A stretch of 64,000 bases of DNA, taken from assembly GCF_013122565.1 (NCBI RefSeq), contig NZ_CP053258.1, one strand, 5' to 3'. A program made the position numbers. Positions 25,201 through 28,200 of the stretch are shown here, piece after piece; the stretch's first letter is position 1; every line of letters begins with the position of its first letter. Source of the DNA: Escherichia coli (GTDB lineage Bacteria; Pseudomonadota; Gammaproteobacteria; Enterobacterales; Enterobacteriaceae).

Positions 25201-28200
25201 AGATAGCCATATTTCTTCCGCGCAGGGCGGTGGTCTCGTAGCCAGTGGTTCAGACGCGACAATCAATTTTTCTGGCACGGCAGCGCAACGAAACAGCATC
25301 TTTTCCGGCGGTTCTTATGGTGCATCAGCCCAGACGGCAACGGCTGTTATCAACATGCAAAATACCGATATTACGGTTGATCGTAATGGCAGTCTGGCGC
25401 TGGGGTTGTGGGCGCTCAGCGGCGGTAGAATAACCGGAGACAGTTTGGCTATCACCGGCGCGGCAGGAGCCAGGGGGATTTATGCCATGACCAACAGCCA
25501 GATCGATCTCACGAGCGATCTGGTCATTGATATGAGTACACCCGACCAGATGGCCATCGCAACGCAACATGACGATGGTTATGCCGCCAGCCGCATCAAC
25601 GCCTCGGGTCGTATGCTTATCAACGGTAGCGTTCTCTCCAAAGGTGGGCTAATCAATCTGGATATGCACCCTGGGTCGGTTTGGACAGGTTCCTCCCTCA
25701 GCGATAATGTCAATGGCGGGAAACTGGACGTTGCAATGAATAACAGCGTCTGGAACGTAACAAGTAATTCTAATCTCGACACGCTGGCGCTGAGCCATTC
25801 AACTGTCGATTTTGCCAGCCACGGGTCAACTGCCGGCACATTTACCACATTAAACGTAGAGAACCTGAGCGGTAACAGTACCTTTATTATGCGTGCTGAT
25901 GTTGTTGGCGAGGGTAATGGCGTTAATAATAAAGGGGATTTATTGAATATCAGCGGGAGTAGTGCTGGTAATCACGTATTGGCTATCCGCAACCAGGGCA
26001 GCGAGGCCACTACGGGAAATGAAGTTCTGACAGTGGTAAAAACCACTGACGGTGCGGCCTCGTTCAGCGCGTCTTCTCAGGTTGAGTTGGGAGGATATCT
26101 GTACGATGTGCGTAAAAATGGCACTAACTGGGAGCTTTACGCTTCCGGGACAATTCCGGAGCCGACTCCAAATCCTGAACCAACGCCGGCTCCCGCTCAG
26201 CCTCCCATAGTCAACCCCGATCCTACGCCTGAACCCGATCCTACGCCTACCCCCACTCCCACACCTAAACCCACCACGACCGCAGATGCTGGCGGCAATT
26301 ATCTCAATGTCGGTTATTTATTGAACTATGTTGAAAACCGTACGCTGATGCAACGGATGGGTGACCTGCGAAATCAGAGTAAAGACGGTAATATCTGGCT
26401 GCGCAGTTATGGGGGAAGCCTGGACTCCTTCGCCAGTGGCAAACTTAGCGGCTTTGACATGGGTTACAGCGGTATCCAGTTTGGTGGGGATAAACGTCTC
26501 TCTGATGTAATGCCGTTGTATGTCGGTCTGTATATTGGCTCAACACATGCATCGCCGGACTATAGCGGAGGCGACGGTACCGCACGTTCAGACTACATGG
26601 GAATGTACGCCAGTTACATGGCACACAACGGTTTTTACAGCGATCTCGTTGTAAAAGCATCGCGCCAGAAAAATAGCTTCCACGTACTGGACAGTCAGAA
26701 CAACGGCGTTAACGCCAACGGCACTGCGAATGGATTGAGCATCTCCCTGGAAGCCGGGCAGAGGTTCAACCTGACCCCTACTGGTTATGGGTTCTATATA
26801 GAGCCGCAAACCCAGCTCACATACAGCCACCAGAATGAGATGGCTATGAAGGCGAGTAATGGTCTCAATATACATCTGAATCACTACGAATCGCTGCTGG
26901 GGCGTGCCAGTATGATACTGGGATATGACATCACCGCAGGCAACAGCCAGCTGAATATGTATGTGAAGACTGGCGCTATCCGCGAGTTTTCAGGGGATAC
27001 AGAATATCTGTTGAACAACTCCCGGGAGAAGTACAGTTTCAAAGGTAATGGCTGGAATAACGGCGTGGGAGTCAGTGCACAGTATAACAAACAGCACACA
27101 TTCTACCTCGAAGCGGATTACACGCAGGGTAACCTCTTTGATCAGAAGCAAGTCAACGGAGGATATCGCTTCAGCTTTTAAGTACGGGGTAGACAAGCCC
27201 TTAAACGATGCTGAAAAATGTTAGCGTGCGCCGGAATGAAATATAGATCATCCTGGTGTAATTAAGATCATGCGGAGGTGCGTCAACGCCTCCGCGCCTT
27301 TCACCAAAAAGTCATTGATGGAGGGGCAGGGTGATTACTCAGTCTCATTGGAATAATCTTTGTAAATTAACAAACTTGATCGTAAGGATATCAGATGGCT
27401 ATTACCTATATCGTTGTTTTAACCTATGTAAAACCACTCAGCGAAGTCGATGAGCAAATTCCGGCTCATATCGAATGGTTAAAAAAAGGTTATTCAGATG
27501 GTGTTTTTCTCGCATCTGGAAGAAGAGTACCCCGCAATGGGGGCATCATTCTAGCTCAATGCAATGATATTCATGCTTTAGAACAACGCCTGAGTCAGGA
27601 TCCATTCCGAAAGAGTGGGATCGCGGAGTCAGTAATTATTCCGTTTGAAGCCAGTATGAAATCAGAAGCATTACAGGATATTTTTTAGTTATCACATGGA
27701 TGAGGTGAACCATCGATTTGGTTCAACTCACCGAAATAATTACACCTATTACGTGGTGGGTAAATGCGAACGTTATCGTGCCACAGAACCGGCCTGTATA
27801 ACTATTTTCAGATAAGCTCCTGCCGATAATTCTGCGGATCATGATATTCTTGACTATCTATCGTCAGTTATCACCCGTGATTTACTGCTTAGATACCGGT
27901 GAGGACTAAAAAACTATTATGTGGCGCACATAATGATTTTTTCTATCTTTCATACCCGGCGCTTAAACTGCCCTGCATCAATGCCATGTTGCTTCATTTT
28001 CCGCCACAGCGTAGTGCGGCCGATTCCAAGTAAAGCCGACATTTCCTGAATGCGACCGCCTGTGACCTGGGCTGCGTTAATAATTGCCTCTTTTTCAACT
28101 TCCGCAAATGACAGACTGGTGGAAAGGCGTGTGGCGCTGACATCATCTGTCGCCTGCTCGGTAAACAGATGTTCCGGCAAATCACTGACGCGAATGCGCC

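What the first reader, a model, noticed from the sequence alone, without database searches (positions are those of the whole stretch)
27395..27688. 97-aa YciI-like ORF between ycgV and dhaR, not in the K-12 gene order as I remember it
A well-formed gene (AAGGA RBS with 6-nt spacing, hairpins on both sides) occupies the ycgV-dhaR intergenic region. I do not recall a gene here in K-12, so it may be strain-specific or simply unannotated. YciI-like proteins are small stress-associated proteins of unclear function.
Basis: partly seen in the sequence, partly recalled or inferred. Interest (0 to 1): 0.35.

Follow-up and report, generated by a model that had tools for sequence, protein, structure and literature searches.

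The report
Rare YciI gene, stranded transposon cargo
The 97-codon gene between ycgV and dhaR is a real YciI-family gene that K-12 and all 5,426 complete E. coli genomes searched lack; it appears to be the leftover cargo of a dif-site-targeting insertion sequence whose transposase has rotted away, which is a tidy evolutionary story but not a new kind of biology.

Summary
ORF 27395-27688(+) has an AAGGA ribosome-binding site 6 nt upstream and hairpins on both sides. It hits Pfam YCII (E 1.2e-13), and its model folds like HI0828/YciI and TftG. K-12 lacks about 665 bp here (27272-27936), as do all 5,426 complete E. coli genomes searched. NCBI already annotates the exact protein (WP_171459468.1, "YciI family protein") in one E. 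coli chromosome.

New here:
- **Transposon origin.** The gene plus 58 bp upstream and 11 bp downstream is 88-91% identical to the cargo of a 1.9-kb IS1202-family "transporter IS". That element has TGT/ACA ends, 5-bp duplications, and inserts 5 bp from dif-like XerC/D sites. It was found in about 13 distinct plasmid and chromosome contexts.
- **Transposase relic.** Right after the gene, 27700-27768(-) still encodes transposase residues 128-150. No inverted repeats remain, so the gene is immobilised.
- **Second lineage.** An Escherichia-like organism carries the orthologous gene at the same site (93.9% nt, dN/dS 0.20).
- **Polarity.** The terminator hairpin at 27908-27942 is ancestral: in E. albertii and another lineage it follows ychF. 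K-12-type E. coli therefore look like deletion derivatives.

The biochemical function is unknown. His25 and Asp69 are conserved, which suggests an enzyme.

The parts
27395..27688 (+). 97-aa YCII-superfamily (YciI-like) gene, intact
   Evidence: Pfam PF03795 E 1.2e-13. AF2 pLDDT 95.6. Foldseek top hits are 1mwq (HI0828/YciI, TM 0.76) and 4lbp/4lbh (TftG, TM 0.75). H25 and D69 are invariant in 64 homologues.
27384..27388 (+). Shine-Dalgarno AAGGA, 6 nt before the ATG
   Evidence: Read directly. Conserved in all aligned copies (A2).
27337..27699 (+). Core homologous to the cargo segment (nt 81-444) of the 1.9-kb IS1202-family transporter IS: 58 bp upstream, the ORF, and 11 bp downstream
   Evidence: blastn gives 88-89% identity to L004-L011 and L031-L040. 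Homology stops abruptly at 27337.
27360..27373 (.). Near-palindrome TTGTAAATTAACAA in the conserved 5' region; it is perfect (TTGTTAATTAACAA) in the intact IS copies. Possible operator; function untested.
   Evidence: Read.
27700..27768 (-). Fragment of the IS1202-family transposase gene (residues 128-150, RIYPPRNRCNYFGELNQIDGSPH), fused 11 bp after the YciI stop codon. About 910 bp of tnp are missing relative to the intact element.
   Evidence: tblastn gives 18/23 identical residues, E 5e-8. blastn gives 72-74% identity.
27769..27880 (-). Possible further decayed transposase remnant (about residues 85-127, with stops and indels). Weak, seen by eye only.
   Evidence: Frame -2 translation (…EYHDPQNYRQELI*K*LYRPVLWHDNV… against ERHDIVISVETLRKWMIADGLWVPYVRRKP). 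Not significant by tblastn.
27271..27296 (+). GC-rich hairpin (GCGGAGGTGC…GCCTCCGC) upstream of the gene. It arises from a ~24-bp insertion that is absent in the orthologous locus L021.
27698..27732 (+). Hairpin directly after the stop codon, formed inside the transposase fragment. No U-tract.
   Evidence: dG -17.4, z -4.0.
27908..27942 (.). Bidirectional intrinsic terminator (A6-stem-loop-stem-T6) shared by the YciI gene and dhaR. It is ancestral chromosomal sequence, not part of the IS.
   Evidence: The homologous hairpin GCCATTATGTG-N4-5-CACATAATGGC-T6 occurs in L021, and just after ychF in E. albertii (L058) and in the 94%-DhaR lineage (L052/L055). It is absent from K-12-type E. coli.
27272..27936 (.). 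Segment (~665 bp, 41.8% GC against 49.4% for the window) absent from K-12 and from all complete E. coli genomes searched. The breakpoints are blurred by a few bp.
24296..27181 (+). Left neighbour: ycgV-type autotransporter (961 aa)
   Evidence: 97.3% to K-12.
27950..29869 (-). Right neighbour: dhaR (639 aa)
   Evidence: 98.8% nt identity to K-12 across the dhaR-dhaK/dhaL block; DhaR protein 100% identical to the main E. coli cluster representative.

Best explanation
The ORF is a functional YCII-superfamily gene that entered the ychF/ycgV-dhaR spacer of an ancestral Escherichia lineage as the passenger of an IS1202-family 'transporter IS'. The layout of that element is IRL, yciI-like gene (+), transposase (-), IRR.

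Deletions later removed both IS ends and most of the transposase gene. What remains is the gene, its own 58-bp 5' region, and a 69-bp transposase fragment. The gene is therefore immobilised.

The protein has been kept under purifying selection. It is most likely a small dimeric ferredoxin-like enzyme that uses the family's conserved His/Asp pair on an unknown small molecule. Transcription ends at the hairpin after the stop codon or at the old ychF/dhaR bidirectional terminator.

Mainstream E. coli, including K-12, later lost the relic and that terminator in one ~665-bp deletion. The window comes from a rare, divergent E. coli lineage that still has the relic, or regained it.

Shown: gene identity and fold, homology to the IS cargo, the transposase fragment, absence from other E. 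coli, orthologous presence in a second lineage, and the ancestral status of the terminator.

Inferred: a single ancient insertion, deletion polarity, expression, and enzymatic activity.
For: 1. Gene identity. Pfam YCII E 1.2e-13. AF2 pLDDT 95.6 with a beta-alpha-beta-beta-alpha-beta fold. Best structural matches are HI0828/YciI and TftG. H25 and D69 are invariant in 64 homologues and align to the His and DP[FY] Asp of HI0828 and TftG.

2. IS origin. Close homologues (>=87% aa) sit inside a ~1,900-bp element (1,880-1,902 bp). Its 452-457-aa transposase hits NCBIfam ISNCY_2 (NF033594) at E 1e-148. It has TGT…ACA ends, repeated AAATGTCAC sites and 5-bp duplications (ATGTA, ACGGG). It abuts dif-like sites such as TGTGCGCTTAA-GCATGT-TTATGTTAAAT. 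These are the properties described for the IS1202 family (PMC10132070). Window 27337-27699 is 88-89% identical to the cargo segment.

3. Transposase relic. It lies on the expected side and strand: 27700-27768(-), Tnp residues 128-150, E 5e-8. Its 72-74% nt identity matches neutral decay given dS 0.31-0.45 in the neighbouring gene.

4. Foreign composition. GC is 40.8% and GC3 32%, against 51% for dhaR.

5. Same-site orthologue. L021/L022 carry ychF, a ycgV remnant, yciI-like, the hairpin and dhaR. Nucleotide identity is 93.9% and dN/dS is 0.20.

6. Polarity. The terminator hairpin is present in E. albertii, in a 94%-DhaR lineage, in L021 and in the window, but not in K-12-type E. coli.

7. Source lineage. 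The window is 98.4-99.1% identical at best to any of 5,426 complete genomes across its whole length. There is no divergence peak at the junctions.
Against: - No inverted repeat, target-site duplication or dif-like target can be recognised in the window. Window 27257-27336 matches IS nt 1-80 at chance level: 20/80 ungapped, and local alignment is no better than shuffles.
- Only 23 transposase residues are statistically supported.
- The left homology boundary coincides exactly with the cargo boundary, which a 'source locus' model would also predict.
- No sigma-70 consensus promoter was found directly upstream, and expression is untested.
- The orthologous locus is known only from two 1.2-kb contigs of unidentified origin.
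- Retention against re-acquisition cannot be settled without a phylogeny.
- The YCII family has only one biochemically defined member, so the 'enzyme' reading is an extrapolation.
Confidence: 0.7

Rival explanations
1. Source-locus model. The yciI-like gene is native to this Escherichia site. An IS1202-family IS landed beside it, and the transporter IS picked up its cargo from a locus like this one. The window is then the donor rather than the recipient.
For: - Homology to the IS begins exactly at the cargo boundary (IS nt 81 = window 27337), and no IRL is detectable.
- The gene is under purifying selection in two chromosomal lineages.
Against: - GC3 of 32% is foreign for Escherichia.
- E. albertii and the 94%-DhaR lineage have neither ycgV nor this gene at the site.
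- The gene was found in one E. coli genome and two short contigs only.
- IS copies are diverse (dS up to 0.5), widespread in Morganella, Citrobacter and sewage plasmids, and keep their own IRL with two transposase-binding motifs.
- Capture would need loss of one IR and gain of another.
Confidence: 0.1
2. Recent import. The strain's ancestors had the K-12-type empty site. The 665-bp segment (gene plus terminator) was brought in by homologous recombination from another Escherichia lineage such as the L021 organism. The origin of the gene is the same; only the route into this strain differs.
For: - The gene is absent from 5,426 complete genomes spanning all main phylogroups.
- A related lineage carries the same arrangement.
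- The last ~21 bp before the left junction match K-12 unusually poorly, 12/21.
Against: - The flanks are ordinary E. coli up to the junctions, 98.4-98.5% to the best genome, with no divergence peak.
- L021 flanks are only ~80-94% identical to the window.
- The strain is >=1% diverged from every complete genome along all 64 kb, which fits an under-sampled lineage.
Confidence: 0.2
3. The ORF is a dying relic with no present function: an unexpressed leftover that happens still to be open.
For: - No consensus promoter directly upstream.
- The neighbouring IS parts are decayed.
- Nearly all E. coli do without it.
Against: - The reading frame is intact, while the adjacent transposase is reduced to fragments with stops.
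- dN/dS is 0.20 against the orthologue and 0.12-0.17 against IS copies.
- The RBS and the 58-bp 5' region are conserved at ~80-89%, while flanking IS sequence is unrecognisable.
- All family-invariant residues are retained.
Confidence: 0.1

Closest known systems
IS1202-family transporter IS (tISKpn21, tISKpn65, tISRel10; ISAjo2-type subgroup), Harmer & Hall 2023, PMC10132070
   Same: - The intact relatives of the window's segment have a 452-457-aa ISNCY_2/IS1202-type DDE transposase.
- They have TGT/ACA ends with an extra internal transposase-binding repeat at each end.
- They make 5-bp duplications and insert 5 bp from the XerC arm of dif-like sites.
- They carry one extra ORF between the transposase stop and the distal end.
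   Different: - The published tIS passengers had no Pfam match. Here the passenger is a YCII-domain protein.
- The ~1.9-kb element is at most ~82% identical to anything in PLSDB and could not be checked against ISfinder.
- The window holds only the cargo and a 69-bp transposase fragment, with no IRs, TSD or recognisable dif-like target, so it is a relic and not an IS.
YciI of Haemophilus influenzae (HI0828, PDB 1mwq) and E. coli YciI
   Same: - Same fold (TM 0.76, rmsd 2.2 A) and about the same size (~100 aa).
- The conserved His and the DP[FY] Asp align.
   Different: - Only 17-18% identity.
- NCBIfam YciI equivalog models score far below their cut-offs: 13.9-18.6 bits against 111-149.
- It is a separate, mostly mobile-element-borne enterobacterial subfamily.
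TftG, 5-chloro-2-hydroxyhydroquinone dehydrochlorinase (PDB 4lbh/4lbp)
   Same: - YCII superfamily fold (TM 0.75).
- Catalysis in TftG depends on a conserved His-Asp dyad (as summarised in PMC7641849), and both positions are conserved here.
   Different: - 12% identity.
- There are no chlorophenol-degradation genes nearby.
- Substrate and activity are untested.

Membership tests
YCII superfamily (Pfam PF03795) | Significant match to the family profile above the gathering score | tested here: met
   E 1.2e-13, 51.8 bits against a cut-off of 24; residues 6-82 cover profile positions 3-92 of 95.
YCII superfamily (Pfam PF03795) | Ferredoxin-like alpha+beta fold as in HI0828 and TftG | tested here: met
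   AF2 model with pLDDT 95.6 and elements E-H-E-E-H-H-E. Foldseek PDB top hits are 1mwq (TM 0.76) and 4lbp/4lbh (TM 0.75).
YCII superfamily (Pfam PF03795) | Conserved histidine and aspartate (putative catalytic pair) | tested here: met
   H25 and D69 are invariant in 64 homologues. In HMMER alignments, H25 aligns to the His of HI0828 and D69 to the DP[FY] Asp of HI0828 and TftG. Spatial proximity in the model was not measured.
Orthologue of E. coli/Haemophilus YciI (NCBIfam PRK11370 and related equivalogs) | Score above the equivalog cut-off | tested here: not met
   Best scores are 18.6, 17.2 and 13.9 bits against cut-offs of 134, 149 and 111.
TftG-type dehydrochlorinase | Dehydrochlorinase activity on chlorohydroxyhydroquinone | not testable with these tools
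   Only fold and dyad similarity are available. There is no pathway context.
IS1202 family insertion sequence (window copy) | Encodes an IS1202/ISNCY_2-type DDE transposase | tested here: inconclusive
   Only a 23-residue fragment (aa 128-150, E 5e-8) survives at 27700-27768(-). The intact relatives score E 1e-148 to NF033594.
IS1202 family insertion sequence (window copy) | Terminal inverted repeats beginning TGT and ending ACA, with internal transposase-binding repeats | tested here: not met
   Window 27257-27336 against IS nt 1-80 gives 20/80 ungapped matches, which is chance level. Local alignments are no better than shuffles. No right end was found. Intact relatives have both ends.
IS1202 family insertion sequence (window copy) | 3-5-bp target-site duplication and insertion 5 bp from the XerC arm of a dif-like site | tested here: inconclusive
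   No TSD is identifiable because both ends are gone. The nearby palindrome TTATGTG-GCG-CACATAA has only partial resemblance to XerC/D arms (by eye). Intact relatives show the TSD plus a dif-like site.

The most novel reading that the evidence does not exclude
The YciI-like protein may not be passive cargo. It may instead contribute to mobile-element biology. Examples would be modulating Xer/dif-directed insertion, plasmid or IME establishment, or counteracting a host response. That would explain why this subfamily recurs in three settings: inside a dif-targeting IS, immediately downstream of MobA/MobL relaxase genes in chromosomal elements, and in small islets. It would also explain why the gene stays under selection after its transposase has decayed.
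Probability: 0.08. Interest if true: 0.6.

Novelty: new member of a known kind. Interest (0 to 1): 0.33.

Why it matters
- It gives a concrete case of an insertion-sequence passenger gene outliving its transposase and being kept by the host in two Escherichia lineages.
- It shows that the "standard" K-12 ycgV-dhaR junction is probably a deletion scar that also removed the old ychF/dhaR terminator.
- It adds a cargo with a recognisable protein family (YCII) to the recently defined dif-targeting IS1202 family. The published passengers of that family had no family assignment.
- The practical consequence is small. The gene is already annotated and its biochemical function remains unknown.

Tried and rejected
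- **Integron cassette or secondary-site insertion.** I considered this at first sight and dropped it once the IS context appeared.
- **Decayed left inverted repeat at 27257-27336.** A TGTAATT at exactly the extrapolated IS start looked promising. Ungapped identity is 20/80 and local alignments are no better than shuffles, so I rejected it.
- **The terminator palindrome as the dif-like target of the IS.** The arm order is inverted relative to dif, and the hairpin is intact and ancestral. Not supported.
- **Recombination tract around the insertion.** Sliding identity to K-12 and to the best genome shows no peak at the junctions.
- **Finding the arrangement elsewhere.** Two metagenome DNA scans found nothing. 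The scan of species-representative genomes found only 48-72% homologues outside Escherichia.
- **Plasmid collection.** Only 68% yciI-like hits.
- **Defence or phage association.** PADLOC and PHROGs gave no hits.
- **Promoter.** The consensus scan found nothing directly upstream of the gene.
- **TftG paper.** PMC3789946 is not held, so the dyad statement rests on PMC7641849.
- **Extending the transposase remnant beyond residues 128-150.** Suggestive by eye but not significant.

Full report
**1. Observation**

The ORF is present exactly as described: 27395-27688 on the + strand, ATG start, 97 codons. AAGGA lies at 27384-27388, six bases before the ATG.

Three hairpins fold much better than shuffled controls:
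- 27271-27296, dG -18 kcal/mol.
- 27698-27732, dG -17.4 kcal/mol.
- An A-tract/stem/T-tract bidirectional terminator at 27908-27942.

The neighbours are a ycgV-type autotransporter (24296-27181, +) and dhaR (27950-29869, -), followed by dhaKLM.

**2. It is a real YCII-family gene**

Pfam YCII scores E 1.2e-13, above the gathering score. A database search finds 103 homologues, nearly all 97 aa long. An AlphaFold2 model built on 64 homologues has mean pLDDT 95.6 and a ferredoxin-like beta-alpha-beta-beta-alpha-beta topology.

The best structural matches in the PDB are HI0828/YciI (1mwq, TM 0.76) and the dehydrochlorinase TftG (4lbp/4lbh, TM 0.75). ClcF and muconolactone isomerase follow.

His25 and Asp69 are invariant in the subfamily. 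They align with the conserved His and the DP[FY] Asp of HI0828 and TftG. TftG catalysis is reported to need a His-Asp dyad, and the family is otherwise poorly characterised (PMC7641849).

The protein is not an orthologue of E. coli YciI, because the NCBIfam equivalog models score far below their cut-offs. It has no PADLOC or PHROGs match.

**3. It is absent from K-12 and from other E. coli**

The window is genuine E. coli. The dhaR-dhaK region is 98.8% identical to a K-12-type genome and ycgV is 97.3% identical.

K-12-type and O157 genomes have a 99-bp ycgV-dhaR spacer and lack window ~27272-27936. None of 5,426 complete E. coli genomes covers the segment. A more sensitive blastn of the segment alone finds nothing.

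The exact protein is nevertheless on record as WP_171459468.1 / QJU24472.1, "YciI family protein [Escherichia coli]". It comes from a single 4.82-Mb chromosome and from one sequencing run of apparently the same strain, with an identical 851-bp locus.

Over all three thirds of the 64-kb window, the best identity to any complete genome is only 98.4-99.1%, and the best-matching strain differs from segment to segment. The source is therefore an under-sampled, divergent E. coli lineage. Identity shows no local dip at the junctions.

**4. Where the gene comes from**

Proteins at least 87% identical occur in Citrobacter, Morganella, another E. coli and many sewage metagenomes. In those places the gene nearly always lies tail-to-tail with a 452-457-aa transposase.

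Comparing about 13 distinct contexts delimits an element of about 1,900 bp (1,880-1,902) with these features:
- It begins TGTTATTGCAAG… and ends …GGTGTTACA.
- It has two AAATGTCAC repeats near each end.
- It is flanked by 5-bp duplications (ATGTA, ACGGG).
- Its transposase-proximal end lies 5 bp from dif-like sites, for example TGTGCGCTTAA-GCATGT-TTATGTTAAAT.

The transposase matches NCBIfam ISNCY_2 at E 1e-148. These are the properties of the IS1202 family described by Harmer and Hall. That family includes a few "transporter IS" with one extra ORF, whose products had no Pfam assignment (PMC10132070).

Related elements in plasmids carry other passengers in the same slot. One is a TIR-domain protein in a Klebsiella plasmid and another is a 76-aa hypothetical protein in Pantoea.

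More distant homologues (64-72%) are not next to such transposases.

**5. What is left in the window**

Window 27337-27699 covers 58 bp upstream, the ORF and 11 bp downstream. It is 88-89% identical to nt 81-444 of the element.

Immediately after it, 27700-27768 on the minus strand encodes RIYPPRNRCNYFGELNQIDGSPH. That is 18/23 identical to transposase residues 128-150 (E 5e-8), on the side and strand expected from the intact element. About 910 bp of the transposase gene are missing in between.

The fragment's 72-74% nucleotide identity is what neutral decay predicts from the synonymous divergence of the neighbouring gene (dS 0.31-0.45). Further upstream in the transposase frame there are faint, stop-riddled resemblances to residues ~85-127. 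These are not significant.

No inverted repeat survives. The 80 bp where the left end should lie match it at chance level, and no right end, duplication or convincing dif-like site is present.

The segment has 41.8% GC and the gene has GC3 of 32%, against 51% for dhaR.

**6. A second lineage and the direction of change**

Two 1.2-kb contigs (L021/L022) from other sequencing runs carry, in order:
- the 3' end of ychF (94.5% to the window),
- a pseudogenised ycgV remnant,
- the same yciI-like gene (93.9% nt, 7 aa differences, dN/dS 0.20),
- the same terminator hairpin with compensatory changes,
- the 3' end of dhaR.

These contigs have a larger deletion of the transposase remnant.

E. albertii and a lineage with 94%-identical DhaR have no ycgV. 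In them ychF and dhaR are 160-393 bp apart, and the same palindromic hairpin (GCCATTATGTG-N5-CACATAATGGC-T6) sits just after ychF. The hairpin at 27908-27942 is therefore ancestral chromosome, not IS.

K-12-type E. coli have ycgV but lack both the hairpin and the yciI-like segment. The simplest reading is that the window-like arrangement is older and that the K-12-type junction is a ~665-bp deletion. I put this at roughly 70%.

Whether this strain retained the segment or regained it by recombination cannot be decided here.

**7. Mechanism**

- **Shown:** an intact, conserved YCII-fold gene with its ribosome-binding site and a conserved 5' region. That region includes the near-palindrome TTGTAAATTAACAA. 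The gene is followed by a hairpin and a bidirectional terminator.
- **Inferred:** the gene is expressed from its own 5' region, although no consensus sigma-70 promoter was found. The protein acts as a small His/Asp enzyme on an unknown substrate. It was delivered by a dif-targeting IS and later fixed in place by deletions that stopped just short of the gene on both sides.

**8. Verdict**

The added value is the origin. The gene is the stranded cargo of an IS1202-family transporter IS, and K-12 is probably a deletion derivative at this site.

The gene is already annotated, belongs to a known family and has no known function. The element belongs to a known IS family. Interest is modest.

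Noticed in passing
L061 (K. pneumoniae plasmid NZ_CP094480.1, 221190-223399) and L062 (Pantoea plasmid NZ_CP045249.1): Relatives of the same IS1202-family backbone (Tnp 80-87% aa identity) carry different passengers in the slot between the transposase stop and the distal end. One is a TIR-domain protein and the other a 76-aa hypothetical protein.
   Followed up: partly
L041-L046 (chromosomes of several Enterobacteriaceae): A very common 71%-identical homologue (P0018, indexed in 1000 blocks of the collection) sits 75 bp downstream of a MobA/MobL relaxase gene, in what look like integrated mobilisable elements.
   Followed up: no
L047-L050 (Citrobacter): Another homologue (P0006) lies in a ~2.8-kb islet, together with a DUF1440 protein and small ORFs. 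The islet is wedged between potC-like and potB-like genes of the spermidine/putrescine transporter operon.
   Followed up: no
window 1-64000: The whole window is only 98.4-99.1% identical to the best of 5,426 complete E. coli genomes, and the best-matching strain differs by segment. The source strain belongs to a poorly sampled lineage.
   Followed up: partly
window 23510-23534; L052, L055, L058: E. coli ychF is followed by a different terminator hairpin (AATCCACGCAATTGCGTGGATT). E. albertii and a 94%-DhaR lineage lack ycgV altogether and use the ATTATGTG…CACATAAT hairpin after ychF. The ycgV region therefore looks like an insertion into an ancestral ychF-dhaR spacer.
   Followed up: partly
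L030 (E. coli HH45, NZ_CP116411.1): About 1,480 of the 5,426 complete genomes gave no match to the ycgV-dhaR junction query. The weakest listed hit (HH45) matched only at the dhaR end; there ycgV is reduced to short fragments between ychF and dhaR, yet the K-12-type right junction is kept.
   Followed up: partly
L037 (ENA metagenome scaffold): This copy of the transporter IS is flanked by a 15-bp direct repeat (GATGCGCATAGAAAC) instead of the usual 5 bp. Its transposase is split into two ORFs.
   Followed up: no
L012-L015 (ENA/Logan contigs; purF-ubiX-hisJ region of an unidentified enterobacterium): This copy keeps the IS left end and the yciI-like gene but has no transposase at all. It is a second, independent example of stranded cargo.
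   Followed up: partly
window 27360-27373: The near-palindrome TTGTAAATTAACAA lies 22 nt upstream of the ATG. It is a perfect 14-bp palindrome in the intact IS copies, so it may be an operator.
   Followed up: no
window 10783-10848 (-) and 52109-52187 (-): Rfam gathering-level hits to the rdlD antitoxin RNA and the C0299 sRNA. These are ordinary E. coli features.
   Followed up: no
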